From contig CAZZJC010000006.1 in assembly GCA_964654285.1 (NCBI GenBank), positions 67,288 to 131,287 of the forward strand: a stretch of DNA of 64,000 bases, given 5' to 3'. Below the pieces are notes generated by a model that was not told the origin of the DNA, made no database searches, and worked only from the letters and a program-made list of their open reading frames with translations. The DNA is from an uncultured Candidatus Kuenenia sp. (GTDB taxonomy: Bacteria > Planctomycetota > UBA11346). Of the stretch, positions 1 through 32,613 are shown piece by piece (the stretch's first letter is position 1; every line of letters begins with the position of its first letter). The translations under genes were made by a program, and so were the position numbers.

Positions 1-594
1 ACCCAGCACGTGTTCCAACCCGGCCGCGACCGCATCGGTCGAGGTCGGGTTGCCGATCTGGTCGTCGACCACGCGCAGCGCCGGGCCGTCCTGCCGCCCG
101 ACCTTGGTCAGGGTGTGGACGAAGCTCGGCCCACCCGCGCCATACAGCCACGCGATGCGCGCAATGACGTGGTCGGGGCAATGCGCCCGCACCGCCGCTT
201 CCCCGGCCAGCTTGCTCGCGCCGTACACCGTGCGCGGCCCGGTTGCATCCCATTCGTGGTAGGGCCGGTCGAGGTCGCCGCTGAACACGTAGTCGGTGCT
301 GATCGCGACCATCCGCGCCCCGCTCTGCCGGCACGCCGCGGCGACGTTCGCCGAGCCGATCGCGTTCAGGCGGTAGGCCAGATCGCGTTCACTCTCGCAC
401 TTGTCGACCTGGGTATGCGCGGCGCAGTGCACCACCGCATCCGGCCGCACCTGCGCCAGCATGGCGGTGCAGGCGCGCGCATCGGTGATGTCGAGTTCCT
501 CGCGGTCGGTGGCGACAAGGTCATGCCGGCCCTGCCATCGGCGCAGCAACGTCCGCCCAAGCATGCCCTTGGCACCGGTGATCAGGATCTTCAT
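1..594 (-). CDS. rmlD: dTDP-4-dehydrorhamnose reductase (RmlD/RfbD); 3' end runs off the window
   Basis: Reverse-strand translation starting at the complement of ATG 592-594 gives MKILITGAKGMLGRTLL...VHCAAHTQVDKCE...YVFSG...YGASKLAGE, the RmlD Rossmann and catalytic motifs. There is no stop before the window edge. The listed plus-strand ORF 10..630 is its mirror frame. Confidence 0.85.
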   Translation of the reverse strand, partial: MKILITGAKGMLGRTLLRRWQGRHDLVATDREELDITDARACTAMLAQVRPDAVVHCAAHTQVDKCESERDLAYRLNAIGSANVAAACRQSGARMVAISTDYVFSGDLDRPYHEWDATGPRTVYGASKLAGEAAVRAHCPDHVIARIAWLYGAGGPSFVHTLTKVGRQDGPALRVVDDQIGNPTSTDAVAAGLEHVLG

Positions 595-716
595 TGGGCC
601 TCACTGGGCTTGGACTGCATGGGAAACTAGACATACAAGGCGTTTTTAGACAACGCTTTATAACGATTCCTTAAATACGGGAATTGTATTCCCTGTTTTT
701 CCGGTACGGTCATGTC

Positions 717-1892
717 ATGATTCCCCGCCTGCTCGTCCACACCGTCACCCGGATCGCCGCCGGCTATCCCGTGGTGGTGCTCACCGGGCCGCGCCAGTCC
801 GGCAAGACCACGCTGGCCCGGACGTGCTTCCCCCACCTGCCCTATGTCAGCCTTGAGGACCCGCTGGAACGCACGGCCTTCCGTGCGGATCCGCGCGCCT
901 GGTTGTCGCGCTACCCGGACGGGGCGGTGCTGGACGAGGTCCAGCGTGCGCCGGATCTGCCGAGCTGGCTGCAAGGCATCGTCGACCGCGACCGCCGTCT
1001 GGGTCGGTGGGTGATCACCGGATCGCAGCAGTACCAGGTCATGGATCGGGTGACCCAGAGCCTGGCCGGCCGGGCCGCCCTGCTGGAACTGATGCCCTTC
1101 AGCCACGCCGAGCTGACTGCGGCGGGTTTGGCCCAGGCCGATCCCGCGACCGCGATCTGGACCGGCGGCTACCCTCCGCTGTACGACCGTCCGGTCGAGC
1201 CCGGTCGCTGGCTGGGCGACTACATAGCCACCTACCTGGAACGCGATGTGCGATCGATCGCCGCCGTGCGCGATCTCACCCGCTTCGCCGGTTTTCTGCG
1301 CCTGTGCGCGACCCGCACCGGACAGATGCTGAATCTGGCCAGCATGGCGGCGGAACTGGGCATCGATGCCAAGACCGCACGCGGCTGGCTGTCCGTCCTG
1401 GTCGCCGGCTACGTCGTCCACCTGCTGCCACCGCACCACGCCAACCTGGGCAAACGCATCGTCAAGCATCCCAAGCTGTACCTGCTCGATACCGGACTGG
1501 CGTGCCGCCTGCTGGCGATCGCTGATCCGGGCGCCTTGCGCACCCATCCCGCCTGGGGCGCGCTGGTCGAGACCTGGACCTTGGTCGAGGTGATCAAGGC
1601 GTTGCGCCATCGGGGCGGCAACGCAGACGGGTTGTACTACTGGCGCAGCCACGACGGTCTGGAGGTCGACCTGATCCACGAACGGGGACAGGCGCTCCAT
1701 TCCTGGGAGATCAAGGCCACGACCAGCCCCGCGCCCCACGATCAGACCGGCCTGCACCGCTTCCGCGCGCTGGTCGGCACGCGCCACGCAGGCAGCGCGC
1801 TGATCCACCTCGGCCCGGAAACCGGTGCGCAACGCGAGGTCAGCCTGGTCCCGTGGCATGGGATCGATACCGCCGTCGCAGCGATCCCCTGA
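717..1892 (+). CDS. AAA+ ATPase, DUF4143 family (COG1373-like)
   Basis: MIPRLL...PVVVLTGPRQSGKTTLAR contains a Walker A motif. The length and C-terminal region are typical of the DUF4143 ATPase family. It sits on the opposite strand between rmlC and rmlD. Confidence 0.8.
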   Translation: MIPRLLVHTVTRIAAGYPVVVLTGPRQSGKTTLARTCFPHLPYVSLEDPLERTAFRADPRAWLSRYPDGAVLDEVQRAPDLPSWLQGIVDRDRRLGRWVITGSQQYQVMDRVTQSLAGRAALLELMPFSHAELTAAGLAQADPATAIWTGGYPPLYDRPVEPGRWLGDYIATYLERDVRSIAAVRDLTRFAGFLRLCATRTGQMLNLASMAAELGIDAKTARGWLSVLVAGYVVHLLPPHHANLGKRIVKHPKLYLLDTGLACRLLAIADPGALRTHPAWGALVETWTLVEVIKALRHRGGNADGLYYWRSHDGLEVDLIHERGQALHSWEIKATTSPAPHDQTGLHRFRALVGTRHAGSALIHLGPETGAQREVSLVPWHGIDTAVAAIP

Positions 1893-1904
1893 GCCGCCCA
1901 CGTC

Positions 1905-2486
1905 TCAGATCCCGTGCACGTTCGCTGGATTCCACGCGAACAGGTCCGCGGGCGGAATGGCAGTCAGCCCGGGGAACCCCGCATCGCGGGCATTCAGGTC
2001 CGGTGCGACGCCGGTGTCGGGCCAGCGGATGCCGACGCCGGGATCATCCCAGCGCAGGCCGCGCTCGTGCTCCTTGGCCCAGTAGTCGCTGACCTTGTAG
2101 AGCACCTCGGCGGTGTCGCTGAGCACCAGGAATCCATGCGCGAAACCCTTGGGCACGAACAGCGCCCGCCGGTTCGCCGCCGTCAGTTCCGCCCCGACCC
2201 AGCGGCCGAAGGTCGGACTGCCGCGCCGCACATCGACCGCGACATCGTAGATCGCGCCGACCAGGCAGCGCACCAGCTTGTCCTGCGGCTGCCGCACCTA
2301 GTAGTGCAGCCCGCGCAGGATGCCGCGCCGCGACAGCGACTGGTTGTCCTGCACGAACGCCGCCGCGATGCCCAGGCCGGCCAGCACCTTGGCGTTGTAG
2401 TTTTCCATGAACCAGCCGCGCGCATCGCCGAACACCGCTGGTTCGAGCAGGCACACGCCGGGAATCTCGGTGTCGATGCGCTTCAT
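1905..2486 (-). pseudogene. rmlC: dTDP-4-dehydrorhamnose 3,5-epimerase (RmlC) interrupted by an in-frame TAG at 2298-2300
   Basis: Two abutting minus-strand ORFs (2298..2486 and 1905..2297) together read MKRIDTEIPGVCLLEP...[44 protein letters not shown]..., a contiguous cupin-type RmlC interrupted by a single amber codon where RmlC proteins normally have Gln. Confidence 0.7.
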
Positions 2487-2554
2487 GAGTCGGTTCTCTC
2501 AGGTTTGCCGGGAGTCCGGCTTCTTGCGACAAGGGCGATGGCGGCGCGAAGGAT

Positions 2555-3115
2555 TCAACGCAGATCACCCCTGGCGAGGTTCCAGGCATCGGCCACCCCG
2601 TAGCGGGAGGCCCAACGACTGACCATATCCCGGTCCAACGACGGCAGGAGGCGGACGATCGAGCGTACGTCGCGCAGGTGCTTGTCCTGACCGCTGATCG
2701 CAAAATAGCGGAGTTTCATCGCGATGATGTATTCGGGCGGGGCGACCGGGACAGACAGACCGGCCACCGGCAACCGTCGCGCGTGCGCCAGACCCCAGCG
2801 CATCAGGTCGTCGTCCCCGCTGGGATAGCAGTCGGCTTTGAAGCCGCTGTCGTGGTGGATGAGATTGAACGATCCGCGCGCCCCGCGCCGGATCTCGTGC
2901 GCGAGGACGGCAAGCGGCGGGCAATAGAAGACGTTTTCCGGAAAAATCGCGATCAAGCGCTCTTCCTGCCCTGGACGCAGGTCCAGGATGCAATCGACAT
3001 CCAGGGTCGCGCGCGGTTCGCTATAGCACATCGCGCCAACCGATCCCCCGAGCATCCACGGCACCCCGATCGCCTGCATGCCGCCAAGCAGCGCCGTCAT
3101 GCCCTCCAGCATCAT
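2555..3115 (-). CDS. Nucleotidyltransferase-fold protein (AbiEii/MNT-like), possible toxin-antitoxin component
   Basis: MMLEGMTALLGG...GGSVGAMCYSEPRATLDVDCILDL shows a nucleotidyltransferase G[GS]x9-13Dx[DE] motif. The start overlaps the upstream small ORF's stop in an ATGA arrangement. The N-terminal 116 aa of the listed 302-aa ORF look non-proteinaceous, so the start is placed at MML. Confidence 0.5.
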   Translation of the reverse strand: MMLEGMTALLGGMQAIGVPWMLGGSVGAMCYSEPRATLDVDCILDLRPGQEERLIAIFPENVFYCPPLAVLAHEIRRGARGSFNLIHHDSGFKADCYPSGDDDLMRWGLAHARRLPVAGLSVPVAPPEYIIAMKLRYFAISGQDKHLRDVRSIVRLLPSLDRDMVSRWASRYGVADAWNLARGDLR

Positions 3116-3429
3116 CGCGGCACCGGATCCGTACCCGGTTCCAACGCAAGGATTTCGCGGATCACCGCCCATTTGATCCCCTGCGCATCCGCTGCAGGGA
3201 ATCGGCGCTGCAACCGCTCGCGGCGCTGCTGCAGGGCGAACGCGGACATCTCCAGACCCAAGGCCAAGCGGCGTTCCGGCGTCATCGTGGCGAAGACCGC
3301 CCATTGGCGTTCGATGCCTTCCACCTCTTCCGCCGGAATCACCACCGGGGGGCGCGGCCTGGAATGACTGCGGTCGGAAGCGATCATGGCCGGTGAGATT
3401 GCTTCTGGATCCAGACAGGCAATCGGCAC
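3112..3429 (-). CDS. Small hypothetical protein, putative partner (antitoxin-like) of the downstream nucleotidyltransferase
   Basis: 105-aa ORF (…TPERRLALGLEMSAFALQQRRERLQRRF…IKWAVIREIL). It is translationally coupled (ATGA) to the nucleotidyltransferase gene. No family was recognised. Confidence 0.35.
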   Translation of the reverse strand: MPIACLDPEAISPAMIASDRSHSRPRPPVVIPAEEVEGIERQWAVFATMTPERRLALGLEMSAFALQQRRERLQRRFPAADAQGIKWAVIREILALEPGTDPVPR

Positions 3430-3585
3430 CTCGCTCCCTGGTCGGGCTCAGGCAGGTCACCACTTGGGTGCGTTGACCGACCCGCCAACCAGGTCGCCCG
3501 AGACGCGTCAGGCAGGGAGGGCGTGGGCTACCCCGGCCAGCATTTCCGGAATTTCAGCGGCAAGAATTTCTGGCATCCATATCAC

Positions 3586-3936
3586 TTACACCGTTGACTC
3601 CCGCACTAATAGAACGACTCCGATGAGCACAAATCCCATACCGATCAGTTTGACCATACCCAGGCTTTCACCGAACCACCACCAACTGGCGACCGCCACG
3701 ATGCCCATGCCCACCCCGGTCATGATCGGATAGCCGACCGTCAAAGGGATCCGGGTCAGGGCGTAACTGTAGGCAACCAGCGCAAGGCCGAAACTCGTCA
3801 TGCCCAGGATATACCAGGGATCGTGCAGAACGCGGTCGAGCAACGGCCGGCTGACATCCCGGACGCCGGCCTTGACCAGCACATTGGCGGCGGCGTTGAG
3901 CACGACCCCGATGGCGAGAGCGATCCAGGTGATCAC
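3586..3936 (-). CDS. Small 4-TM DMT/EamA(ArnE/GtrA)-like membrane protein; candidate lipid-linked sugar flippase subunit
   Basis: VETVITWIALAIGVVLNAAANVLVKAG...GMGFVLIGVVLLV gives about 116 aa with four predicted TM helices. A GTG start overlaps the DprE2-like stop (GTGA), making it the last gene of the DPA-like operon. It is analogous to GtrA-like Rv3789 next to the mycobacterial DPA genes. Confidence 0.6.
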   Translation of the reverse strand: MITWIALAIGVVLNAAANVLVKAGVRDVSRPLLDRVLHDPWYILGMTSFGLALVAYSYALTRIPLTVGYPIMTGVGMGIVAVASWWWFGESLGMVKLIGMGFVLIGVVLLVRESTV

Positions 3937-4700
3937 AGTTTCAACCGCTTGAAGAGGCACTCGGGGATGCGGGTGATGATGGCCATGATCCAACGCCAGA
4001 ACCAGCGCGTGTAGAGCACGTTCCGCTTGCGGTCGATGGCGCGCAGGATGTCCCGCGCCACCTGTTCCGGCGTGGCGACGAGCGGCGAACCTTCTTTCAG
4101 CAGACCCGCCGTCATCGGTGTGGCGACGAATCCTGGCTTGATCGTCAGCACGTGTTTGCGCTCATGGAACAGCCGGTTCCGCAAGCCTTGCAGGTAGGCT
4201 GCCAAACCGGCCTTGGTGCTGCCGTACAGGTAGTTCGATTGGCGGCCGCGATCGCCCGCTACCGAACCGATCACCGCCAGAACGCCACCTTCAACCAGCG
4301 ATGGCACCAACGCCTCGCAGAGGACCACTACTGAACTGAAGTTCACCTGGATCTGGCGCAGCGCCAAGGTGGCATCCTGTTGCGCAGCACGTTGATCGGC
4401 CATGGTGCCGTAGGCGATGAGCACGGCTTGGACCCCATGCGGCGCCAAGGTACGCAACCGCGCTAGCAGATCACCGTGCTGCGCCGGATCGCCAGGATCG
4501 CAGGTGATCGCCACGGCTTCGACCGCTCCCCGCAGCCGAGCATCGGCCGCCACGCGTTCGCCTTCGGCGGCATCGCGCGACGTGAGGATCACGCGGGCGC
4601 CGCGCCCGGCCCAGGCGCGGACACATGCCCGGGCGATGCCGGATGTGGCGCCGATGACCAGGATGGAAGCAGCCTTTGGATTTCCGGTTGCATCAGTCAC
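3933..4700 (-). CDS. dprE2: Short-chain dehydrogenase; DprE2-like decaprenylphospho-2'-keto-ribose reductase homolog
   Basis: VTDATGNPKAASILVIGATSGIARA...NYLYGSTKAGLAAYLQGL...WRWIMAIITRIPECLFKRLKL aligns along its whole length with mycobacterial DprE2 ([22 protein letters not shown]...NFVYGSTKAGLDGFYLGL...[20 protein letters not shown]). A GTG start is proposed at 4698-4700; the listed ORF extends to an upstream ATG at 4775. Confidence 0.8.
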   Translation of the reverse strand: MTDATGNPKAASILVIGATSGIARACVRAWAGRGARVILTSRDAAEGERVAADARLRGAVEAVAITCDPGDPAQHGDLLARLRTLAPHGVQAVLIAYGTMADQRAAQQDATLALRQIQVNFSSVVVLCEALVPSLVEGGVLAVIGSVAGDRGRQSNYLYGSTKAGLAAYLQGLRNRLFHERKHVLTIKPGFVATPMTAGLLKEGSPLVATPEQVARDILRAIDRKRNVLYTRWFWRWIMAIITRIPECLFKRLKL

Positions 4701-4796
4701 GAAGGTTGCACCCCTGATATTGAATTTGGTGGTAGAGCCGTGGCAGGATTCTTGGCAGAAATGACGATCGATCAACGTGCACGCGCATCCGTACGT

Positions 4797-6140
4797 TCAT
4801 CCCACCAGCCCCAATCGCACCGCCAAGCGCGAGCGGACTCGACCGTGCGGGTCCAACTTTGCCTGGAATTGCCTGAATTCATCCAGGCGCGGATACATCG
4901 CCTGGACGGCGGCGGCACTGCCCAAGGTATCCTTGGCGAAGTAGATCCGGCCCTGATGCGCGAGCAGGATCGCCTGCAGGCGTTCATGCAACGCATGGAT
5001 GCGGTCGGCAGCGAACGGGATGTCGAGCGCCAGGGTGAATCCCGGGGCGAGGTAGGACAGCCAGCCTGGTCCGGCCGCGCCGCTGCGCTTGAGCACGGCC
5101 AGGAAACTCGCCAGGCGCGCATCGCTGATCGCCTCCAGCACCTGGCGCAATCCCGCCGCCGCGGTCGTATCCGGGAACCATGCCTGGAACTGGATGAAAC
5201 CGCGCGTGCCATAGATCCGGTTCCACTGATGGACGGCATCGAGCGGATAGAAGAACGTGTCGTAATCGACAATCTTGGTGCCGTCGCCGTGTTTCCAGTA
5301 AAAAGCTTGGTTGAACGCACTTACCGACCACGACCCCAGGGCCCAGGACGGAAAATCGAAGGGCACCGTCTTGCGCCCCTTGCGAGGGACGCTCATCGGC
5401 CGGTCGCGGTAGGCACGCGGCAGTTCCTCCGGTTCGGCGTCGTTCCCGAGCATCAGCACCGACCGGCCGAGGGCCGCACCGCGGGCCAGGCAGTCGATCC
5501 ACGCCACGCTGTAGCGATGTCCCTGATCTTCCTCAGCCAGACGGGCCAGGGCACGGTCGAGCCCCCCCGCACGTTCATAGCGGACCCGGTACCACGCCGA
5601 GGGCACCCGTCGCAACCGCAGGGTCACCGCCAGGATGAACCCCGTCAGGCCCATGCCGCCGACACTGGCCCAGAACAGGTGCGGATCATTGGCCGGGGTG
5701 ACGGACCGGATCTCGCCGCTCGGCAATGCCAGCACCAGTTCCGTCACATGGGCAGAGAAAGAACCGTCCACATGATGGTTCTTGCCATGCACATCCGCCG
5801 CCACCGCCCCACCCAGGGTGACGAACTTGGTTCCGGGCGTGGTCGGCAGGAAGAATCCCCGGGGTTGGAAATGCTCGATGATCGTCGCCAGACTCACCCC
5901 GGCCTCGGCGGTGAGCAGTCCGCTAGCGGGATCGAAGGCCAGGAAGCGATCGAGACCGGTGTTGCCCAGCACCACGCCACCATCGACGGCGGGCACCGCC
6001 GCATCGCCATACGAACGCCCCAAGCCGCGCGCAATCCAGGGTTGCGCCAGAAGCCTGGGCAGTTCTGCCCAGGTGGTGGGCAGGATGACCTGGCCGGGAA
6101 CTACCGGCACCCGACCCCAACCGGACAGCAACGTGGTCAT
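4797..6140 (-). CDS. dprE1: FAD-linked oxidase; DprE1-like decaprenylphospho-beta-D-ribose 2'-oxidase homolog
   Basis: MTTLLSGWGRVPV...ARGLGRSYGDAAV...PGTKFVTLGGAVAADVHGKNHH...YPRLDEFR matches the DprE1 N-terminal (LTGWGRT...RGLGRSYGD...PGT..VT.GGA.A.D.HGKNHH) and C-terminal regions. The start overlaps the stop of the upstream HAD-UbiA gene (ATGA). The listed 728-aa ORF carries a spurious N-terminal extension. Confidence 0.85.
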   Translation of the reverse strand: MTTLLSGWGRVPVVPGQVILPTTWAELPRLLAQPWIARGLGRSYGDAAVPAVDGGVVLGNTGLDRFLAFDPASGLLTAEAGVSLATIIEHFQPRGFFLPTTPGTKFVTLGGAVAADVHGKNHHVDGSFSAHVTELVLALPSGEIRSVTPANDPHLFWASVGGMGLTGFILAVTLRLRRVPSAWYRVRYERAGGLDRALARLAEEDQGHRYSVAWIDCLARGAALGRSVLMLGNDAEPEELPRAYRDRPMSVPRKGRKTVPFDFPSWALGSWSVSAFNQAFYWKHGDGTKIVDYDTFFYPLDAVHQWNRIYGTRGFIQFQAWFPDTTAAAGLRQVLEAISDARLASFLAVLKRSGAAGPGWLSYLAPGFTLALDIPFAADRIHALHERLQAILLAHQGRIYFAKDTLGSAAAVQAMYPRLDEFRQFQAKLDPHGRVRSRLAVRLGLVG

Positions 6141-7564
6141 GGTGATCCTTTCGGCCCGGCCCCCAGGATGAGTCCGATCGCAAGGATCACCATCACCCAG
6201 GAACCTCGATCCTTGATCGCGAACACGATGGGGTCGTCGTGCAGTTCGCCGCGTCCGGCCTTCAACCAGACCCGGCACGACCACCACAGGATGAGCGGCA
6301 CCAGTCCCCACAGCATCTCGGGTCGCTGATAGAGACCCGGTGCCGCCGGCCCGGCCACATATAGTCCTACCACCAGGGCGGTGGCGAAGGCCGCCGCGAT
6401 GCCGCCCGTGGTCACAAAGGGCAGATCCTCGGCCCGCCAGCCCCGGCCCTTGGCCCCGGCACCACCGGTGGACACCACGCCATGCAATTCCGCCGCCCGC
6501 TTGCCCAGGGCCAGGGACAGGAACAGGAAGACCAGCACCGCCATCAACCAGGGCGACAACGGGATCCCCAACGCGACCGCCCCCGCCACCGACCGCAACA
6601 CATAGAGTCCGGCAAGGATGAACACATCCAGCAGCACCTTGCGTTTGAGGGCGAACGAATATGCGAACGTGACCGTGTAATAGATCCCCAGCATCATCGC
6701 CCCCAGCGGCGAGGCGCACCAGGCCAGGATCCCGGCGGCGATCAGCAACGCTGGGGCCAGGACGAGACCATACAGCACCGGCAAGGTGCCGGCGGCGAAC
6801 GGTCGCCGCCGTTTGCGCGCATGCGCGCGATCGTTTTCCAGATCCAGGAGGTCGTTGAGGAGGTACACCGACGAGGCGCACAGACAGAAGGCGAGGAACA
6901 ACCACCCGGCCGCCAACCAAGTTCCCGTGGCGGTGACATGCGCCGCCAACAGGGGCAGGAAGACCAGCAGGTTCTTCACCCACTGGTGCGGCCGCAGGGC
7001 CTTGATCAGGGCCTTGCCACGTGAGGTCGCGTCGGGATGCCGCCCGAGCACCGGTGCACCGACGCGGGCTTCCGACCAGCCAGCGGCCGGTCCGGCGAGC
7101 ACGGCACCTGCACTCGCGCGCCAGATCGGAAGGTCAGCCGCGCAATCCCCAGCGTAGCAGAACGGACCCTGGGCATCGGCCTGGATCGCCTCCAATTTCG
7201 CGGCACCCTTGCGATTCACCGTGCCGGTGGCGATCACGCCATCGAAGCACCCCAGGTGGTCCGCCACTGCCTGGGCGATGCGTTCGTGCGCGGCGGTGGC
7301 CAATACCACCCGCCGCCCCACTGCCCGCTCGGCGCGAATCCATTCGACCAGTTCGCTTCGGTACGGCAGCAAGGCTGCATCTGGCATCACCCGTTCAGCC
7401 AACCAGGATTTGGCTGACAGCGCTCCCCGCAGAAGCACGAACGGGATCCGCCACGCCATCCAGGGTTGGCGGCGCACCGCCAAAGCGACCGAATCCCATA
7501 GGGAATCGCCGGGGTAGAGGGTGCCGTCGAGGTCGATATAGAGCGGGGGCACGGGCGATTGCAT
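6137..7564 (-). CDS. Fusion protein: N-terminal HAD-family phosphatase domain plus C-terminal UbiA-family prenyltransferase (decaprenyl-phosphate 5-phosphoribosyltransferase-like)
   Basis: MQSPVPPLYIDLDGTLYPGD is a HAD motif I (DxDGT). After about 190 aa come ~9 TM helices with ALRPHQWVKNLLVFLPLL and NDLLDLENDRAHARKRRRPFAAG, the UbiA Asp-rich prenyl-PP binding motifs. It is homologous to Rv3806c-type DPPR synthase. Confidence 0.8.
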   Translation of the reverse strand: MQSPVPPLYIDLDGTLYPGDSLWDSVALAVRRQPWMAWRIPFVLLRGALSAKSWLAERVMPDAALLPYRSELVEWIRAERAVGRRVVLATAAHERIAQAVADHLGCFDGVIATGTVNRKGAAKLEAIQADAQGPFCYAGDCAADLPIWRASAGAVLAGPAAGWSEARVGAPVLGRHPDATSRGKALIKALRPHQWVKNLLVFLPLLAAHVTATGTWLAAGWLFLAFCLCASSVYLLNDLLDLENDRAHARKRRRPFAAGTLPVLYGLVLAPALLIAAGILAWCASPLGAMMLGIYYTVTFAYSFALKRKVLLDVFILAGLYVLRSVAGAVALGIPLSPWLMAVLVFLFLSLALGKRAAELHGVVSTGGAGAKGRGWRAEDLPFVTTGGIAAAFATALVVGLYVAGPAAPGLYQRPEMLWGLVPLILWWSCRVWLKAGRGELHDDPIVFAIKDRGSWVMVILAIGLILGAGPKGSP

Positions 7565-7682
7565 TAGGGTTTGCAGGGAGTGAGTATAATGGCGCTTGCG
7601 ACAAACGGCAACCACCAAGGCAAACGTGGATGTTGGAATCACGTTCAGACTCGGATCAGTTCGATTCATTTTAATTACATGA

Positions 7683-7868: not shown

Positions 7869-9059
7869 ATGACTGGACCAAAGTTGGAGGTTGCCACACT
7901 CGATCTGACTATCGCCAGATTCCACTCCCTCGATATTTTGAGAGGACTCGCTGCGCTTTGCGTTGTATTTTGGCACTGGCAGCATTTCTTCTATGAAGGT
8001 TCCGCACTCGGCCCATTTATACCGACTGATCAGCCGGGATTCAGATACCTCTCACTTCTGTATGCTCGTGGGTGGTTAGCTGTTGATCTATTTTTCTGCT
8101 TGTCGGGTTTTATATTCTATTGGTTGTATTCTCAGCGAATCGTGGACAGGACGATAACTCCCAGCCGATTCGCTTTATTGCGCCTCTCTCGTTTGTATCC
8201 GTTACATGTCGTCACTTTAGTTCTTGTCTTGATTGGTCAGTGGTGGCTGACTTCTGCAGGATCAAGGCCATTCGTCTACGCCCACAATGACGGATACCAC
8301 TTTTTGCTGAATCTGGCATTCGCCTCAAACTGGGGATTCGAGCGCGGATTTTCCTTCAATGCTCCGATCTGGTCTGTGTCGGTCGAAGTATTGCTGTATG
8401 CCATCTTCTTCTGCGTTTGCCGGTGGCTGCCGATTCGAGGGTTGGCCCTCGTGATCCTAGCGTTGATTGGACTCCTGGTTGTGCAACGGTTCAATCTCTT
8501 CCTCGGGAGAGGTGTTGGGTCGTTCTTTCTTGGTGGTTGCGCATTTCTTGTTTATATTAGAGTGCGAAGGTCGTCCTGTGTGGCAATTTTGACCTGGACT
8601 GTAATTGGAACCACGATGCTTTTTTGGACGATTGCTATCGTCATTGCAGTAAATCCTCAACTGAGCGCTGCCATCTCCTTGCGCGATACAACCTTATTGG
8701 CTAAATTCGATGACGCGTTGCAAGCAATGCTGGCAACTTGGCCTGTCGTTGTGCTGTTTCCTCTGACCATCCTCGCGCTGACCCTGTTCGAGACGCTACG
8801 TGGTTCGTTTGCCCGGCGATTTTCATGGATCGGGAACATTTCCTATTCATCGTATTTACTTCACTTTCCACTGCAATTTATCTTTCATGCAGTCGCTCTC
8901 CGTTGGACAACCGGCAACATGATCTTTTATGAGCCGTGGGTGATGGTATTATTCTTCACAATACTTATTGGACTGAGTATGCTGAGTTTTCATTTTTTCG
9001 AGATGCCGGTCCAGAATTATTTGCGGCGTTTCGAAATGAATTCCGTGGCCAAATGGTAA
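7869..9059 (+). CDS. Acyltransferase family 3 (OafA/YrhL-like) integral membrane O-acyltransferase
   Basis: FHSLDILRGLAALCVVFWHW...LAVDLFFCLSGF...RLYPLHV contains the characteristic acyltransferase-3 motifs and about 10 TM helices. It lies in a segment of lower GC. Confidence 0.8.
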   Translation: MTGPKLEVATLDLTIARFHSLDILRGLAALCVVFWHWQHFFYEGSALGPFIPTDQPGFRYLSLLYARGWLAVDLFFCLSGFIFYWLYSQRIVDRTITPSRFALLRLSRLYPLHVVTLVLVLIGQWWLTSAGSRPFVYAHNDGYHFLLNLAFASNWGFERGFSFNAPIWSVSVEVLLYAIFFCVCRWLPIRGLALVILALIGLLVVQRFNLFLGRGVGSFFLGGCAFLVYIRVRRSSCVAILTWTVIGTTMLFWTIAIVIAVNPQLSAAISLRDTTLLAKFDDALQAMLATWPVVVLFPLTILALTLFETLRGSFARRFSWIGNISYSSYLLHFPLQFIFHAVALRWTTGNMIFYEPWVMVLFFTILIGLSMLSFHFFEMPVQNYLRRFEMNSVAKW

Positions 9060-9188
9060 TCCAACAACGCTTTTACCTAGTGCCACCTGCCTAGATGAAC
9101 CTATCCGACCAATTAGATCGCAGTCTAAACGAATGCGAGGGATTTTCAACTCGTGTCTTTCCTCTGGTGACGTTTCGCTTACGCGATT

Positions 9189-10055
9189 TCAGATGAGCTG
9201 CTCAGGTGGATACGACCTGTAGAGCCATGACGGTTTGCGACCATCACAAGCATGGGTAGCCCTGGCGCGGCAAAATAGGTACTGGCCAAGGTCTTCTCCT
9301 CGATGCGCGACCAACGGAGCGATGGTTTTCAGGTCGTAGAATTCGCCGGCGTGATTGTCATGTACATCCGAAGAAATCAACAAATCAACCGTAAATCCGG
9401 CGTGAGTCAGCAATCGGTGGAGGTCGTGCTTGTTGTATTCACGGTTGTGCCGCCCATGCGGACCGTAATGCGAATAGGGATCGTATATATTCACGCCAGC
9501 AAGCATGCGGGCGACGTTCTCAAGTCGGCACACGTTGGGAGTGCTGAGGATAAGGGTACCCCCGGGCACCAGACTGCGGTGCAGACGAAGCAGGAACTGT
9601 AGTGGGTCGCGTATGAGATGCTCAATCACCTCGCAGCACAGGACGACCTCGAAGTTGGTTGCCCAGGGTGATTCAGCGACCTCCATGTCAAGGTTGGGAT
9701 ACGACATGTCGTAGCGTTCGCCCGTCATGGCATTAACCATCGTTTGCAAACCATTGGCAGGCAATCCCTCGAAATAATTAAGACATTGTACCTGCCAGGA
9801 TGTAAATCGTCGCAGGAGCAGGGTCGTAAAATATGGGTTTGAACCGACCTCAAGCAGACGGCCGCTGCCGGGCGGAACAAGTGACAATGTCAAGAGGAAT
9901 CGACGAAAATCCGTATCTAGGTACGAACGCAACGCTGATGGATCAGCATTGTCGAGCGAAAACCCGGCGAGCCAATCCCTGAGCGCTACTTCGTCCCATC
10001 CCGGTGGGCAGGTGAAGGGCAGCGGTGTAAGGAGCGGAAATAATTTGATCGTCAT
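9189..10055 (-). CDS. Class I SAM-dependent methyltransferase
   Basis: LLEVGSNPYFTTLLL...VVLCCEVIEHLIRDP...LVPGGTLILSTPN shows SAM-methyltransferase motifs I, II and III. The start overlaps the stop of the 1160-aa GT (ATGA). GC is lower here. Confidence 0.75.
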   Translation of the reverse strand: MTIKLFPLLTPLPFTCPPGWDEVALRDWLAGFSLDNADPSALRSYLDTDFRRFLLTLSLVPPGSGRLLEVGSNPYFTTLLLRRFTSWQVQCLNYFEGLPANGLQTMVNAMTGERYDMSYPNLDMEVAESPWATNFEVVLCCEVIEHLIRDPLQFLLRLHRSLVPGGTLILSTPNVCRLENVARMLAGVNIYDPYSHYGPHGRHNREYNKHDLHRLLTHAGFTVDLLISSDVHDNHAGEFYDLKTIAPLVAHRGEDLGQYLFCRARATHACDGRKPSWLYRSYPPEQLI

Positions 10056-13000
10056 GGGTGGTCCTGGGTTGCTTCATATAGCCCGCCTGAAACAAGCAAA
10101 GCCGTGATCTGTTCCGGCGCATGGCGCTGACGCACCCATGCGGCAGCTTGGCCCACCGTTCCCAGGTCAAGAGTGGCCCTGACGGCTGGGGCGAATTCGT
10201 GGGAATCTGCCCAGTCGCGTCCGCCACCGCTGCGTTGGGTGAGGTCGACAGTGACACCACAGCGACGGTTGACTAGAGTCGGGCGGCCAAGCGACCACGC
10301 CTCGAGGATGACCAGAGACAGGCTTTCATTGGGAGAAGGATTGATGAGCAGACCACAACCGGCTATGGCGTCCCACCGACTCGTCTCGTCTACGAAGCCC
10401 AATGCCTTCACGTCAGGATGATCGGGAACCTGCATCGCAGCCCTGCCGATCAAGACCAGGGGAGGAAGACCGGCACCGGCCGCCTGGGCAGCCAAGTAAT
10501 GGTCGAATAGAAGGTCGCACCCTTTGCCTGGGTCGATACGGCCCAGGTAGAGTATGTAACCGCGTTGCAGTCCATGACGGACCAAAAAGCGATCACTGTC
10601 CACGTTGGTAGGCGGTTGGATGGCAGCTGAGACCACAGGCCCATCCACGCTGAGGTCATGGAAACGCATCCGCACGTGCCTGCGTTCCCATTCACTGAGG
10701 TACCAGAACGCCTTGGGCAGGCGGAAAAGACGGTCCCAAAAGCCAAAACGCATGCACCATTCGTCATGAGCGCAGGGTGCCAGGATGGCACGATCAGCAA
10801 CGAGTGGCAGACCAAACCATGTGGTCGCATAGAGGTAGCCCACAAATATCACGGCATCGTATTGGTTTCCGTTGCGACGCAGGTGGTCGTTGAGGGAACT
10901 GCTCACCGGCCCTTGCAAACGCATCCATCGGTCGGCGTCGTCTGGTCCGGCATTCTCAAGTCCAGTTTGTACAAGTTCAGCACTGCACGCATCGAAGGCA
11001 GTGACGTTGCGGGGAATATCGACCTTGAAACGTCGCACCCGGACGCCCTCAACCTCGTCATCGCCAACTTGATAAAAATTCTCCCAGGTCATGTAATCAC
11101 GGGCGCAAGTTGTTAGTACCTCGACTTGGTTTCGTCCCAGACAACTACCCACCAGTCTGGCCCAAGCCAGGGCGAGGGCCTCGGCGCCGCCAGCAACCTC
11201 GCGCCCACAACGGGTGACCACCACAGCAACTTTAGGCGGAAAAGCCGCCTGCAGGGCCGACAACCAGATCGGACGAACAACAGCTGGAAGAAAGTCACGC
11301 AGTCGCTTTCGTTGGCCGATCAGGATCCGGCGGCGGTCTGCGGGTTCCATTGCGGCGGCGATGGCCGTCGCAATGGCGGTATCGTCTGCGTCTGGCGGCA
11401 AGCACACGCCAGCCCCACCCAAAGTCTCGCCCACTGCGGCATGGTTGAGGGCAACTACCGGCACTTCAAAGGCCATGGCTTCGACGAGCGGGACACCAAA
11501 GCCCTCGTGTTCTGACACTGATACGTAGACATCGGCGGCACGATACGCGGCAGCCAATTGAGCCTGGGTGGCCTTGGTAATTATGCGCACCTGTCCTGTC
11601 AGATCCTCGGCCGTGAGGTCGGCGAGAACAAAGCGAGACCAGTCATCACCAGCGTCAAAATGGCCAACTAAAATGAGACTGGCCGGTATTTTATTCGCGC
11701 GTAACCGGCGAAGGATGGCCAACAATCGATCCTGGCGTTTGTTGGGCGCTAAGCGCCCAACAAAAAGAAGGCGCGGCGACGGCAGTAAGAGCAATTCGGA
11801 TTCAAGAGCGTTCTCGGGCGGTTGACACCAGGTCTCGGGCTGAAAAGGGAGTGTCAGGATGTCACCGGCTGGCGGCAGATGGACGGCACGTGCAAACTCG
11901 TCCCGATTGAACACGGAATCGTGAAATCGTATCGGGAATGCCGCTGCCAATGCCGGCAAGGCTTCAATGCCGGCCTGCAGATTACTGGCTGTCTGAGGGT
12001 CATGCGCGAAGAACCGTGGCGGTGTGATATTGTGGTCAAGCAAAGCCTTGGGTCCGCGATATGAGACCGCCCAATCGGTCGCTGGCGAACCTATGCTGTG
12101 ATGGTAAATTATCGGTTCATCGGTAAGCGAAACCGACGGTAGCGGTAAAACTCGATCAGCTAGTGCAGGGTCGAGGTAGCGGGCGATCAGTTTGCTGTCC
12201 ATTCCCCAACTGCGAAACCAACTTTGTACTGCGATGGCCTCGGAACTAATGGCATCACCAGGGCGGCAGGCGGTCAGCACTTGGTGCAAGTGACGCCTGA
12301 TCAACGGGAATCCTGGCGGTCGGCTAAGGGAGTCGACCAGAGTAATAATGCGGTCAATGACCTTGTCCCAACTCGACAACTCGCGTCCAGTAGCTTGACC
12401 GACCTTGCCCCATGCCGCCAGTTTCTCTGCGTCTGCGTCGGCTAGTTCGCCAATGATTCGTTGCCAGTCATTATCCGAATTAGCCATGGGAGCGCCGGCT
12501 ATCGCCGCCGCCTCGGCGGTGGCGTTACACCGCGCATCGACTGCAACCGGCCGGCCTAGATGCCAGGCCTCCATGAGGACCCGTGAGTAGGCTTCGTGGC
12601 GGCTTGGAACTGCAAGGGCTAGGCAATTAGCCAGTAGCCAGTTGCGGGTGCCATTGTCGACTAAACCAAGATCATGGACGCAATTTGGCAGATCGGCATA
12701 GCTGCGCCCATCGCTACCCGGTCCAGCAAAGACAAGGTCGAGCCCGCAACCACCTGCCGCCCGCCAGCGGAGGAAGGCGTCAGTTAGAACATTGCAGCCC
12801 TTGGAGGGATCGCGACGTCCGAGACAAAGCAAAAATCGTCCAAGGCCAGAAGTCGCCGCAGGGGGCGAGGCTGGAATTGCCAACGTCTCGGGTTCGATAC
12901 CAGTGCCAACCATGTGCAGACGACCATGCAAACCGGCCCCGAGAAGCCGGATAGCCAGCGAGGCCTCGCCAGTGCTGATCGCGGCTATAGCAGGTACCGA

Positions 13001-13534
13001 CATCGCAAGACGCGAAACGGCGGCCATGCGCGCATAGCCTTCATCATGAAGGCAAGGCATCAGTATGCCACGCGATCCGGCTAGACGTACCGCATCGAGA
13101 ACTAAACCAAAACCATAGGGCAGACCTATAACTGCAGCGTAGTCTGTCACATGCCTGGCGATGCGCCGTAAAAGGCTTGGGCTATTGATCCCGTGTGCCA
13201 AGAAGGCGTCCTCGACCCCTGGAGGGATCGCTCCGACAGGTGCGTGATCCCACTCGCCGCGAATGAACCGGATGTTGGCATTATCAAAAGCCGTGCTGTC
13301 GCGCTGACTGACCAGAAAGCGGCGCACCAGCACCGGGCCATCCAGACTGAGACCGGGATGCAGGACGTTGTTCGACCAGGGATCTTGGAAACGTGGAACG
13401 CAGGTGGTCAGAATCTCCACCCGGCGTCCACGTTGACTCAAGCGATGGGCCAGGGCACGGGCCAGACTCTCGGCCCCTCCCTGGCAATTGGGGCCATACC
13501 ATGGCACGACGATAGCAATGGGTTGCCCGTTCAT
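10052..13534 (-). CDS. Three-module GT4 (GT-B) glycosyltransferase, 1160 aa, WbdA/WxcA-like polymerising mannosyl/rhamnosyltransferase
   Basis: Module 1 (aa 1-~400) IAIVVPWYGPNCQGGAESLARALAHRLSQRGRRVEILTTC; module 2 (~400-770) ...FVGRLAPNKRQDRLL...EHEGFGVPLVEAMAFEVPVVA; module 3 (~775-1160) KVAVVVTRCGREVAGGAEALALAWARLVG...VEVLTTC...LEAWSLGRPTLV. The modules are paralogous to the ORFs at 19293..21608 and 21605..22777. Confidence 0.85.
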   Translation of the reverse strand: MNGQPIAIVVPWYGPNCQGGAESLARALAHRLSQRGRRVEILTTCVPRFQDPWSNNVLHPGLSLDGPVLVRRFLVSQRDSTAFDNANIRFIRGEWDHAPVGAIPPGVEDAFLAHGINSPSLLRRIARHVTDYAAVIGLPYGFGLVLDAVRLAGSRGILMPCLHDEGYARMAAVSRLAMSVPAIAAISTGEASLAIRLLGAGLHGRLHMVGTGIEPETLAIPASPPAATSGLGRFLLCLGRRDPSKGCNVLTDAFLRWRAAGGCGLDLVFAGPGSDGRSYADLPNCVHDLGLVDNGTRNWLLANCLALAVPSRHEAYSRVLMEAWHLGRPVAVDARCNATAEAAAIAGAPMANSDNDWQRIIGELADADAEKLAAWGKVGQATGRELSSWDKVIDRIITLVDSLSRPPGFPLIRRHLHQVLTACRPGDAISSEAIAVQSWFRSWGMDSKLIARYLDPALADRVLPLPSVSLTDEPIIYHHSIGSPATDWAVSYRGPKALLDHNITPPRFFAHDPQTASNLQAGIEALPALAAAFPIRFHDSVFNRDEFARAVHLPPAGDILTLPFQPETWCQPPENALESELLLLPSPRLLFVGRLAPNKRQDRLLAILRRLRANKIPASLILVGHFDAGDDWSRFVLADLTAEDLTGQVRIITKATQAQLAAAYRAADVYVSVSEHEGFGVPLVEAMAFEVPVVALNHAAVGETLGGAGVCLPPDADDTAIATAIAAAMEPADRRRILIGQRKRLRDFLPAVVRPIWLSALQAAFPPKVAVVVTRCGREVAGGAEALALAWARLVGSCLGRNQVEVLTTCARDYMTWENFYQVGDDEVEGVRVRRFKVDIPRNVTAFDACSAELVQTGLENAGPDDADRWMRLQGPVSSSLNDHLRRNGNQYDAVIFVGYLYATTWFGLPLVADRAILAPCAHDEWCMRFGFWDRLFRLPKAFWYLSEWERRHVRMRFHDLSVDGPVVSAAIQPPTNVDSDRFLVRHGLQRGYILYLGRIDPGKGCDLLFDHYLAAQAAGAGLPPLVLIGRAAMQVPDHPDVKALGFVDETSRWDAIAGCGLLINPSPNESLSLVILEAWSLGRPTLVNRRCGVTVDLTQRSGGGRDWADSHEFAPAVRATLDLGTVGQAAAWVRQRHAPEQITALLVSGGLYEATQDHP

Positions 13535-15345
13535 GACCGTCCCCCCGGCTTGATGCTGATCAGGCCGAGATCCTGAGGACCATGGAGTGCGAGGTTAATC
13601 CTTGCCCGCGCATCCGTATCGCCGATGACAGTAGAGAGCGCCGCGCCGTCTGTATGTAAGTGCAATGGGCCGACCACCGTGAACCCGCCTTCGGCGACCA
13701 GTACTTCAAGAAGGGCGCGCGGCACCGGCCGCAAATGGGTTGGATCGAGCCAAAAAGTGTTGGCCCCCACCTGCAGGTTGGATGAATCTGGCGTCTCGAT
13801 CATCAACAGACCGCCCGGGGCCAGAGCGCGGTAGGAGGCCCGAATGAGACGCCAGATTCGATCAATCGGTAGATGCTCGACGACATGGAAGACAGAAACA
13901 ACGGCTAAGTTATCCTCAGGTTGAGACTCCAGCCAAGCGCAACCTTCATTAAGTTCAGCCCGCTGTCCCTTGATTCGGAGCGCTTCGACGAACTCTTTAT
14001 TAAGATCAATGCCGATAGGATCGCAATCTTCGGCAATCAACTCGAGCCATTCTCCACGACCACAACCGATATCAGCAACGGTGCGCAGTCCTGTGCGCGA
14101 CACAGCAGCCACAAGGTGCGGCCTATAGACTGCAACACGGTTGTGTATATCCACCATGGAACCGCGCAAACGCGCCTCGATTGCTGCGTAGACTCGGTCT
14201 AACTGCGCCTGCGTCGCATCAGAGGAGGAGAGGGGGGCCTGGGCGAGTGCGATCCGGTCGACCACAGAGGTCATTGCTGCAAGACGATGTTCGAGAGTCT
14301 GGCTTTGTAGGAGTAGGCCGGCTTCTGCCTCAACCTGATGCGCAACGCCCGCCTCCAAGTCGCCCAATTTTCCCACCTGGATTTGTAACGAGATTTCGAG
14401 AGCCTCCTGGCGTTCACCCATGGCCCGGATCTTGGCCTCGCATGGGGCGATGCGGTGTTGCGCGTCGACCACTTGCGCAAGCGCATGTGTCGTGCGCCGG
14501 GATTCCTGCTCTTGACGCTCGACGATGGTCTGAATATGCGCCTCAGTAGAACGAACGCGCTTGTCCGTGACGTCTGTCCGGGTCTCAACACCGGTCAACC
14601 TCGCGGATTGCGTGGCAAGGGATTGTTCACAGGCTTTCAGACGGGATCCAAGTTCCATTACCGATTCGGAGCCAACGTGGATGGCGTCCTCAATGGCCCC
14701 GATCTGATCGAGAATCGAGAGGATGGCCAAGTGGCGTTCGTGGTTGAGTTGGAGCACCAGATCGCGCAATGCCGTCGCTTTTGATTCCAGATTGGCGTCT
14801 ATTCGCTGAGTCTCGACAAACCGCTGATGGTTGAAATCAAGCATTTGCGCCGACAGCGCCGCGACCGATTGGTGGCGTTCGTGATTCAGAGTCAGCGCCA
14901 AGGAGCGCGTATGGGATAATTCGATCAACATATTGCGCATCTCGAGAACCTGACTCTCGATTCTTTCGCGGGCCTCAATCTCCATCCGTAATCGGCAACC
15001 GAGGGCATCACGATGGCGGTCCAGGAGTGAGAATGGAAGCAAGAGGCGTGCCAATCCAAGCAGTCGGCCGAGAATCGGGATGCGGGAAATGCGTTGACGC
15101 CAACGAAACCGGCTTAACCCCGGGAATGGTGCTGTAGCTGATCTGGACTTTCCTTCCATTGATTCAGCCAAGGCAAGGACAATTTCTAGCTTTGATAAAC
15201 GCCCGTCAGTCAAGGCGGACAGATGTAAGTTCATACCCGACGAATCGGGCCCTCTACCAAGAATCGAATGATATGCGGCAAGCAGGAACTCAGGTCCATC
15301 CAACGCCAGTAGAGCATCCATATCCACCGGATTCGGATAATTCAT
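13531..15345 (-). CDS. WbdD-like chain terminator/ruler candidate: N-terminal DUF4214, central coiled coil, C-terminal class I SAM methyltransferase
   Basis: N-terminal FLLAAYHSILGRGPDSSGMNLHLSALTDG...LALAES resembles DUF4214. About 250 aa follow with heptad-like repeats (LTLNHERHQSV..., LVLQLNHERHLAIL...). The C-terminus has VADIGCGRGEWLELI...VFHVVEHLP...LAPGGLLMIETPD, the methyltransferase motifs. The gene is ATGA-coupled to both neighbours. Confidence 0.7.
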   Translation of the reverse strand: MNYPNPVDMDALLALDGPEFLLAAYHSILGRGPDSSGMNLHLSALTDGRLSKLEIVLALAESMEGKSRSATAPFPGLSRFRWRQRISRIPILGRLLGLARLLLPFSLLDRHRDALGCRLRMEIEARERIESQVLEMRNMLIELSHTRSLALTLNHERHQSVAALSAQMLDFNHQRFVETQRIDANLESKATALRDLVLQLNHERHLAILSILDQIGAIEDAIHVGSESVMELGSRLKACEQSLATQSARLTGVETRTDVTDKRVRSTEAHIQTIVERQEQESRRTTHALAQVVDAQHRIAPCEAKIRAMGERQEALEISLQIQVGKLGDLEAGVAHQVEAEAGLLLQSQTLEHRLAAMTSVVDRIALAQAPLSSSDATQAQLDRVYAAIEARLRGSMVDIHNRVAVYRPHLVAAVSRTGLRTVADIGCGRGEWLELIAEDCDPIGIDLNKEFVEALRIKGQRAELNEGCAWLESQPEDNLAVVSVFHVVEHLPIDRIWRLIRASYRALAPGGLLMIETPDSSNLQVGANTFWLDPTHLRPVPRALLEVLVAEGGFTVVGPLHLHTDGAALSTVIGDTDARARINLALHGPQDLGLISIKPGGRS

Positions 15346-17347: not shown

Positions 17348-17418
17348 GGAAGGCGCGGCACCATATAGGAGCCTTGCGCAGTATCCAGGGGGCTTGAGGT
17401 GGCGGCAACGATCCAAGG

Positions 17419-18531: not shown

Positions 18532-18603
18532 CGTCGCGGGAACCCGGCTGAGGGCGAGGCCTGCATAGGCTGCTATCGGAGCGGGGCAAGATGTCCGTCG
18601 CCG

Positions 18604-23819: not shown

Positions 23820-23963
23820 CGGATCGGTTTCCTTGTTTGGGCGCGCAGCCTGCCGGCAATGGGCCGGTTCGTAAAGAGGCTGTCGGTCAAGGCGGAACTA
23901 CTAGGAAAGCGGCACCCAGGATGAGCCCCTGGCATCGATGTCTGCTGTGCGAAGATCACGGGC

Positions 23964-32366: not shown

Positions 32367-32613
32367 GCCCAGCGGGGCTTGCGCCCCAGCCCGACTGCGC
32401 CGCTCTGCGGCTGGCATGCTGCGCATGTCCCCGCTGCGCGGGGATCGACCTGTGGCGACGGTGGCTGCGCCACCGAGTTCCGCTGCGCGGAACCAAGCCC
32501 GTCCCCGCTCGCTCGCTTCGCTCCTCGGGGGATTGCTCCTCGCGGGGCGCTGCCCCGCTACGCCCCGCCAGGGGCCCTCGCCCCTGGACCCGCACGGACC
32601 CAACCAGTGCGAA

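What the first reader, a model, noticed from the sequence alone, without database searches (positions are those of the whole stretch)
1905..2486. rmlC carries a single in-frame amber codon (CAG→TAG-like) at 2298-2300
The RmlC reading frame is otherwise intact on both sides of one TAG, at the position where Gln follows the conserved RGLHY motif. This is either a recent inactivating mutation or a sequencing error. If real, the mutation may be polar on rmlD and indicates that the dTDP-L-rhamnose pathway is being lost. rmlA and rmlB are not adjacent either, and a DUF4143 ATPase gene on the opposite strand separates rmlC from rmlD.
Basis: seen in the sequence. Interest (0 to 1): 0.5.

Follow-up and report, generated by a model that had tools for sequence, protein, structure and literature searches.

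The report
Recent nonsense mutation inactivating rmlC
The rhamnose-pathway gene rmlC of an uncultured planctomycete carries one real premature stop codon (CAG to TAG) at an invariant glutamine; this is an ordinary, recent loss-of-function mutation, not a sequencing error or a new coding trick.

Summary
rmlC lies on the minus strand (2486 to 1905) and is in frame throughout except for one TAG at codon 63 (plus-strand CTA, 2298-2300), right after RGLHY.

- **Real, not an assembly error.** Independent assemblies of three sequencing runs carry the same TAG in 100% identical DNA. No intact copy of this exact protein exists in a 15-billion-protein collection.
- **Derived change.** The two closest relatives (93-94% aa) have CAG. 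Gln63 is invariant in all 121 homologues.
- **Recent.** The gene has no other lesion. dN/dS is 0.11, the same as between intact relatives and as for rmlD.
- **Damaging.** The 62-residue product lacks seven β-strands of the fold, plus the invariant Lys70 and Tyr130.
- **TAG is a normal stop here.** Three other genes end in TAG at the same point as their orthologues.

rmlB lies directly after rmlD, just off the window's left edge, and both genes are intact. Lack of an adjacent rmlA is shared with the nearest relative. The DUF4143 ATPase is a 1.3 kb insertion into an ancestral rmlC-rmlD-rmlB operon. It is probably older than the TAG and matches the candidate defence family PDC-S01.

Verdict: an ordinary pseudogenising mutation, of low interest.

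The parts
2301..2486 (-). rmlC codons 1-62 (ATG at 2486-2484 to ...RGLHY). Includes the invariant His61, the catalytic base, which aligns with His65 of P. aeruginosa RmlC.
2298..2300 (-). In-frame amber codon TAG (plus-strand CTA) at codon 63. It replaces an invariant Gln. The ancestral codon is CAG, so the change is G->A at plus-strand position 2300.
   Evidence: Same codon in L001, L002 and L086.
1905..2297 (-). rmlC codons 64-193 plus the natural TGA stop (1905-1907). Still in frame, with invariant Lys70, Tyr130 and Asp168. A GTG directly follows the TAG, and gene callers use it as the start of a 130-aa fragment.
2487..2590 (-). About 100 nt upstream of rmlC, conserved with both relatives. 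Likely the leader or promoter region of the ancestral rmlCDB operon (inferred).
590..1904 (.). 1.3 kb segment present here where the nearest relative has only 41 nt between rmlC and rmlD. This is an insertion into the operon, with no flanking repeats.
717..1892 (+). AAA_14 + DUF4143 ATPase gene (391 aa), convergent with rmlC with 12 nt between the two stop codons. Matches PADLOC candidate defence family PDC-S01.
1..594 (-). rmlD, first 198 codons. The gene continues past the window's left edge to 282 aa and is followed by an intact 366-aa rmlB.

Best explanation
A single C-to-T transition on the coding strand (CAG to TAG, codon 63) has recently knocked out rmlC, the dTDP-4-dehydrorhamnose 3,5-epimerase, in a natural population of an uncultured Planctomycetota bacterium. 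Translation stops after 62 residues. That peptide keeps the catalytic His but lacks seven β-strands of the fold, together with the invariant Lys70 and Tyr130, so it cannot be an epimerase. Unless another epimerase exists elsewhere in the genome, dTDP-L-rhamnose synthesis is blocked at step 3, while rmlB and rmlD remain intact.

Shown: the stop codon, its reproducibility, its derived state, its recency, and its position in the fold.

Inferred: loss of enzyme activity and loss of rhamnose. Also inferred, as a possible reason for its spread, is altered surface glycan, for example escape from phage, or redundancy after a new glycan gene cluster was acquired next door.
For: - **Stop codon within one continuous RmlC profile match**.
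- **Reproducible.** Identical TAG in three separately assembled runs, with 100% identity over 974 to 11,892 nt. The exact intact allele is absent from the protein collection.
- **Derived.** The nearest relatives, at about 90% nt and 93-94% aa identity, carry CAG. Gln63 is invariant in 121 homologues.
- **No decay.** Nei-Gojobori (NG86) dN/dS for rmlC is 0.11 against either relative, equal to the value between the two intact relatives (0.11) and similar to rmlD (0.07-0.11).
- **Recent.** This branch has 11 synonymous and 4 nonsynonymous changes plus the stop. A whole-branch neutral model expects 32 nonsynonymous changes (P = 4e-10). The neutral phase is at most about 19% of the branch.
- **Position in the fold.** An AlphaFold model of the 93%-identical intact orthologue (pLDDT 96.7) puts residue 63 at the end of strand 56-63, with seven further strands after it.
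- **Catalytic residues.** The alignment to P. aeruginosa RmlC structures maps His61 to His65 and Tyr130 to Tyr134. Their catalytic roles are from my own knowledge of the RmlC literature.
- **TAG is an ordinary terminator here.** Three other genes end in TAG at the same C-terminus as in the relative. The stop census is TGA 27, TAA 4, TAG 3. No other domain-interrupting TAG was found in the window.
- **Precedent.** Truncating mutations in rmlC and other rml-operon genes give phage-resistant Listeria with reduced or absent rhamnose (PMC9134232).
Against: - No reads were seen, so allele frequency within the population is unknown.
- The three runs have consecutive accessions and probably sample one community, so they show reproducibility rather than spread.
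- The whole genome is not available. A second rmlC, or a suppressor tRNA, elsewhere cannot be excluded.
- Near-cognate reading of UAG by tRNA-Gln would restore the exact wild-type residue, so the allele could be leaky rather than null.
- The gene shows no further decay. That is also what a still-functional gene would look like.
Confidence: 0.8

Rival explanations
1. Leaky or rescued gene. Some full-length RmlC is still made because UAG is occasionally read as Gln, by near-cognate tRNA-Gln(CUG) or by a supE-like suppressor. That would restore the exact ancestral residue. The mutation would then turn expression down rather than off.
For: TAG is one transition from CAG, and the ancestral residue is Gln. 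The rest of the gene is intact and shows purifying-selection statistics. Basal UAG read-through as Gln is established in E. coli (own knowledge).
Against: The base after the stop is G (TAG-G), which in E. coli is an efficient termination context (own knowledge). TAG ends three other genes at conserved C-termini, which argues against a strong suppressor. There is no tRNA gene in the window. An intact gene body is equally expected for a very young pseudogene.
Confidence: 0.09
2. Two-piece enzyme. Ribosomes terminate at TAG and restart at the adjacent GTG (TAG-GTG). The resulting 62-aa and 130-aa fragments would assemble into an active epimerase.
For: GTG follows the stop directly. The break falls at the end of a strand, before the 64-69 loop, which is a place where split proteins can be tolerated.
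Against: No Shine-Dalgarno-like sequence precedes the GTG. No relative has a split gene; all 121 homologues are single chains with Gln at this position. The cut separates the catalytic His61 from Lys70 and Tyr130, inside one β-sandwich.
Confidence: 0.04
3. Sequencing or assembly artefact. The true codon is CAG.
For: All the data are metagenome assemblies from short reads. No reads could be inspected. The three runs are probably from one study.
Against: Three separate run assemblies and the NCBI record all carry TAG inside otherwise 100% identical sequence. No gene call with the intact version of this sequence exists anywhere in the collection.
Confidence: 0.04
4. Genetic-code change or programmed recoding of TAG in this organism.
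For: None beyond the single codon.
Against: TAG terminates three genes at C-termini conserved with the relative. No other interrupted gene was found in 64 kb. The stop is not conserved in any relative.
Confidence: 0.01

Closest known systems
RmlC, dTDP-4-dehydrorhamnose 3,5-epimerase (PF00908 / TIGR01221; structures such as P. aeruginosa 2IXI/1RTV and S. enterica 1DZR)
   Same: Full-length profile match. All invariant residues are encoded (His61, Lys70, Tyr130, Asp168). About 60% identity to P. aeruginosa RmlC over 166 residues (E 9e-60). Ancestral linkage rmlC-rmlD-rmlB.
   Different: The reading frame is broken by TAG at the invariant Gln63, so the encoded product is a 62-aa fragment.
Loss-of-function alleles of rml genes selected in bacteria, e.g. 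truncated RmlC and nonsense mutants of the rml operon in phage-resistant Listeria monocytogenes (PMC9134232)
   Same: A point lesion in a dTDP-L-rhamnose gene while the other pathway genes stay intact. The expected outcome is a surface glycan with little or no rhamnose.
   Different: The Listeria mutants were selected in the laboratory, and their phenotype and glycan chemistry were measured. The Listeria rmlC lesion removes only three residues. Here the allele is seen in an environmental population of an uncultured planctomycete, removes two thirds of the protein, and has no measured phenotype or known selective agent.
PADLOC PDC-S01 (single-gene phage-defence candidate; AAA_14 + DUF4143 ATPase)
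   Same: The inserted gene at 717-1892 matches PDC-S01 models (best E 7e-99, nearly full length) and has the AAA_14 + DUF4143 architecture.
   Different: PDC-S01 is only a candidate family, and no defence activity was tested here. This copy sits inside an rml operon rather than in a recognised defence island.

Membership tests
RmlC (dTDP-4-dehydrorhamnose 3,5-epimerase) | Profile match above the curated cutoffs (PF00908, TIGR01221 equivalog) | tested here: met
   PF00908 231 bits (cutoff 27). TIGR01221 240 bits (cutoff 155.75). Gln was substituted for the stop.
RmlC (dTDP-4-dehydrorhamnose 3,5-epimerase) | Catalytic His base, Tyr acid and conserved Lys are encoded | tested here: met
   His61, Lys70 and Tyr130 are invariant columns and align with His65 and Tyr134 of P. 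aeruginosa RmlC. They lie on opposite sides of the stop.
RmlC (dTDP-4-dehydrorhamnose 3,5-epimerase) | Uninterrupted reading frame giving a roughly 180-195 aa chain | tested here: not met
   TAG at codon 63. Gene callers report 62-aa plus 130- or 122-aa fragments.
RmlC (dTDP-4-dehydrorhamnose 3,5-epimerase) | Linkage with other dTDP-L-rhamnose genes | tested here: met
   rmlD and rmlB lie downstream. Relatives have contiguous rmlC-rmlD-rmlB.
RmlC (dTDP-4-dehydrorhamnose 3,5-epimerase) | Epimerase activity | not testable with these tools
   Needs an enzyme assay or a complementation test.
Young pseudogene / nonsense loss-of-function allele | Premature stop inside a conserved domain, at a sense codon in close orthologues | tested here: met
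   CAG in L003 and L089. Gln is invariant in 121 homologues.
Young pseudogene / nonsense loss-of-function allele | Lesion reproducible in independent data | tested here: met
   Three run assemblies plus the NCBI record. Raw reads were not inspected.
Young pseudogene / nonsense loss-of-function allele | Relaxed selection or additional lesions | tested here: not met
   dN/dS is 0.11 with no frameshift or second stop. This is consistent with very recent origin, but it is also what a still-functional gene would show.
Programmed stop-codon read-through / TAG recoding | Stop codon conserved at the site in relatives | tested here: not met
   All relatives encode Gln at this position.
Programmed stop-codon read-through / TAG recoding | TAG not used as a terminator, or other in-frame TAGs in genes | tested here: not met
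   Three genes end in TAG at conserved C-termini. No other interrupted gene was found.
Programmed stop-codon read-through / TAG recoding | Suppressor tRNA (anticodon CUA) | not testable with these tools
   No tRNA gene in the window. The rest of the genome is unavailable.
PADLOC PDC-S01 (for the inserted DUF4143 gene) | Match to PDC-S01 profile HMMs with AAA_14 + DUF4143 architecture | tested here: met
   PDLC04790 E 7.4e-99, residues 1-370. Pfam AAA_14 and DUF4143.
PADLOC PDC-S01 (for the inserted DUF4143 gene) | Anti-phage activity | not testable with these tools
   This is only a candidate family, with no assay available here.

The most novel reading that the evidence does not exclude
The amber codon is not a dead end but a throttle. 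UAG at an invariant Gln codon would be read at low frequency as Gln, or translation would restart at the adjacent GTG to give a two-piece enzyme. The population would then keep a small, tunable supply of dTDP-L-rhamnose while displaying a changed surface glycan. The allele would be maintained by selection, for example from phage, next to a defence-gene insertion and a newly acquired glycan cluster.
Probability: 0.06. Interest if true: 0.45.

Novelty: new member of a known kind. Interest (0 to 1): 0.14.

Why it matters
It matters little beyond annotation. The gene should be flagged as a pseudogene or disrupted rmlC in this MAG, and metabolic reconstructions should not credit the organism with dTDP-L-rhamnose synthesis without checking for a second epimerase. 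It is also a clean example of a very young loss-of-function allele, dominant in an environmental population of an uncultured planctomycete. It sits in a surface-glycan region that also gained a candidate defence gene and a lower-GC polysaccharide cluster. That pattern fits ongoing selection on cell-surface structures, but this was not shown here.

Tried and rejected
- **Identifying the runs from the literature.** A paper search for the three SRA accessions found nothing.
- **Finding the same strain or clade in JGI metagenome contigs.** An exact pattern and then a codon-degenerate pattern, each leaving codon 63 free, gave 0 hits. No further alleles could be compared.
- **Scan of species-representative genomes.** The best rmlC match is only 72% identical (a Planctomycetota MAG). 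The species is therefore not represented, and no whole genome could be searched for a second rmlC or for rmlA.
- **tRNA and Rfam scans of the window.** Both found nothing.
- **Promoter and terminator scan of 1-4000.** No promoter-like sites and only weak hairpins, so co-transcription of rmlC with rmlD could not be judged.
- **Repeats flanking the DUF4143 insertion.** None convincing.
- **Structure prediction of the repaired window protein.** The 93%-identical orthologue P0001 was modelled instead.
- **Literature search for the RmlC catalytic residues.** Nothing usable was found. Their roles are cited from my own knowledge.
- **TAG reassignment.** Considered and rejected.

Full report
**1. Observation**

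rmlC lies on the minus strand from 2486 (ATG) to 1905 (TGA). Translation gives 62 codons ending in RGILRGLHY. Then comes TAG (plus-strand CTA at 2298-2300), followed by 130 further codons in the same frame.

With Gln at codon 63, the 193-aa product matches Pfam PF00908 (E 7e-69, profile positions 2-166 of 168). It also matches the NCBIfam equivalog TIGR01221 rmlC (240 bits, cutoff 156) as one continuous stretch. There is one stop, no frameshift and no other lesion.

**2. Real change or error?**

The 62-aa N-terminal fragment is encoded on contigs from two separately assembled SRA runs, SRR6262237 and SRR6262239. A look-up with the neighbouring ATPase found a third run, SRR6262238, with the same split gene. 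These contigs are 100% identical to the window over 7,486, 974 and 11,892 nt, and all carry TAG.

Both fragments are also on record from an NCBI contig of 136 kb, presumably the source MAG. The exact full-length version with Gln is absent from a collection of about 15 billion proteins.

I could not inspect reads, and the runs have consecutive accessions, so they are probably from one study. A random sequencing or assembly error is nevertheless unlikely.

**3. Direction and age of the change**

- The closest intact homologues are P0001 (93% aa) and P0123 (94% aa).
- Their DNA (L003, L089) has CAG at codon 63, so the change is CAG to TAG. This is one transition, G to A at plus-strand position 2300.
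- Gln63 is invariant in all 121 homologues aligned, as are His61, Lys70, Tyr130 and Asp168.
- Nei-Gojobori (NG86) dN/dS for rmlC against either relative is 0.11. That equals the value between the two intact relatives and is similar to rmlD at 0.07-0.11.
- By three-taxon parsimony, this lineage has 11 synonymous and 4 nonsynonymous codon changes plus the stop.
- If the gene had been neutral along the whole branch, about 32 nonsynonymous changes would be expected (P = 4e-10). The neutral phase is at most about 19% of the branch.

The lesion is therefore young, or the gene is still under selection (see the rivals in section 6).

**4. Consequence for the protein**

The best solved relative is P. 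aeruginosa RmlC (2IXI/1RTV, E 9e-60). In that alignment His61 corresponds to His65 and Tyr130 to Tyr134. From my own knowledge of the RmlC literature, these are the catalytic base and acid.

An AlphaFold model of the 93%-identical intact orthologue is confident (pLDDT 96.7). It places residue 63 at the end of strand 56-63, followed by a loop (64-69) and seven more strands.

The 62-residue product keeps the His but loses seven β-strands of the fold, together with Lys70 and Tyr130. I infer that it is inactive.

**5. Is TAG a normal stop here?**

Yes.

- Three other genes end in TAG: a NusG-like gene (27962-28525), RNase D (37560-38705) and a SurA/PpiC-like rotamase (43051-44355). Each ends at the same C-terminal residues as its orthologue in the relative, which also uses TAG.
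- A census of 34 genes gives TGA 27, TAA 4, TAG 3.
- A scan for same-frame coding segments joined by a stop found no other bona fide interrupted gene.
- The window has no tRNA genes and no Rfam matches.

Code reassignment is rejected.

**6. Rival readings**

- **Leaky allele.** UAG is one step from CAG, and near-cognate reading by tRNA-Gln would restore the wild-type residue. I cannot exclude this.
- **Two-piece enzyme.** A GTG directly follows the TAG, so termination and reinitiation giving two fragments is conceivable. There is no Shine-Dalgarno-like sequence, and no relative has a split gene.

Both are minority readings.

**7.

- The left end of the window (594 to 1, minus strand) is the first 198 codons of rmlD.
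- The overlapping contigs show that rmlD is complete (282 aa). It is followed, with an 8-nt overlap, by a complete rmlB (366 aa) just outside the window. rmlB is therefore adjacent.
- In the three contigs that carry P0001, the order is rmlC, 36 nt, rmlD, rmlB. Here a 1,315-nt segment (window about 590-1904) replaces the 41 nt between the aligned blocks.
- That segment carries the AAA_14 + DUF4143 ATPase gene (717-1892, plus strand). The gene is convergent with rmlC, with 12 nt between the stop codons.
- The scaffold of the second relative (L089) has an intact rmlC (CAG) followed by the 3' end of the same ATPase gene. After a scaffold gap it continues with an rmlC tail, rmlD and rmlB. The insertion is therefore polymorphic among relatives and probably older than the TAG. 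The scaffold gap makes this less than certain.
- None of the 80 more distant rmlC loci has this gene near rmlC.
- No rmlA and no second rmlC lie in the 64 kb window. The intact nearest relative also lacks rmlA within 10 kb, so its absence is not evidence of decay.
- Whether the nonsense codon is polar on rmlD cannot be judged. The pattern scan found no clear promoter or terminator.

**8. Organism**

The xylulokinase at 35945-37465 has its best named relatives in Planctomycetota MAGs (about 76%). The same holds for RmlC at 60-72%. The species is not among the GTDB representatives scanned.

**9. Comparison with what is known**

This is a member of the RmlC family by sequence, but it fails the requirement of an open reading frame. 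It is a young nonsense allele or pseudogene.

Truncating mutations in rmlC and other rml genes are a known route to altered surface glycans. One example is phage-resistant Listeria with reduced or absent rhamnose in wall teichoic acid (PMC9134232).

Nothing here needs a new mechanism.

**10. Verdict**

The biology is ordinary and the interest is low. The neighbourhood contains several points worth noting in passing. These are a candidate defence gene inside an rml operon, a lower-GC ABC-transporter-dependent glycan cluster, and a DprE1/DprE2/HAD-UbiA set.

Noticed in passing
window 717-1892 (+); insertion about 590-1904: The AAA_14 + DUF4143 ATPase between rmlC and rmlD matches the PADLOC single-gene defence candidate PDC-S01 (E 7e-99). 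Its nearest homologues (73-74% identity) lie in unrelated contexts: one inside another polysaccharide gene cluster (Poly_export, GT4, Bac_transf) and one next to a PMT_2 glycosyltransferase. It looks like a solitary, mobile gene that tends to land in surface-glycan loci. No flanking repeats were found.
   Followed up: partly
L089 676-939 (scaffold GROS21-1_SAMEA9561268 scaffold_13726): The relative's scaffold joins rmlC plus the 3' end of the DUF4143 gene, across a 10-N gap, to a second rmlC tail followed by rmlD-rmlB. Either two strains (with and without the insertion) were scaffolded together, or the insertion was only partly assembled.
   Followed up: partly
window 3586-7669 (-): Four co-directional genes: a HAD-phosphatase/UbiA prenyltransferase fusion (510 aa), a DprE1-like FAD oxidase (447 aa), a DprE2-like short-chain dehydrogenase (255 aa) and a small SMR/EamA-like membrane protein (116 aa). 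From memory, this set resembles the decaprenyl-phosphoryl-D-arabinose pathway of mycobacteria. Here it occurs in a planctomycete, with the phosphatase fused to the transferase.
   Followed up: no
window 7869-27843: A 20 kb stretch of lower GC (48-60% against 66-75% around it) encodes an ABC-transporter-dependent glycan system. It includes Wzm (ABC2_membrane), Wzt with its C-terminal binding domain, very large multi-domain GT4 glycosyltransferases (1160 and 771 aa), methyltransferases (one with DUF4214), a GHMP kinase, an APS kinase and an acyltransferase_3 at 48% GC. It is absent from the corresponding place in the nearest relative, where a NusG-like gene is flanked by other genes. It is probably a horizontally acquired island.
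   Followed up: partly
window 27962-28525 (+): A NusG paralogue (187 aa, TAG stop) sits at the edge of the glycan cluster and is conserved in the relative. It may be a specialised antiterminator of the RfaH/UpxY kind for polysaccharide operons.
   Followed up: no
window 2555-3387 (-): Two small overlapping genes lie directly upstream of rmlC: 91 aa with a weak Rv0078B-like hit, and 186 aa with no Pfam or PADLOC hit. They look like a toxin-antitoxin-type pair. The last ~30 nt of the 186-aa gene and the spacer down to the rmlC start codon are conserved upstream of rmlC in relatives that lack the pair.
   Followed up: no
window 32481-32606 and L003 8966-9087: A GC-rich intergenic segment of about 125 nt is 87% identical to a segment beside the thioredoxin/chemotaxis genes that flank rmlC in the relative. 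This points to a rearrangement breakpoint or a repeated intergenic element. It has no Rfam match.
   Followed up: no
L086 1-260 and L001 end: Contigs from two run assemblies break within rmlB or about 260 nt beyond it. This suggests a repeat or a strain-variable junction just left of the window.
   Followed up: no
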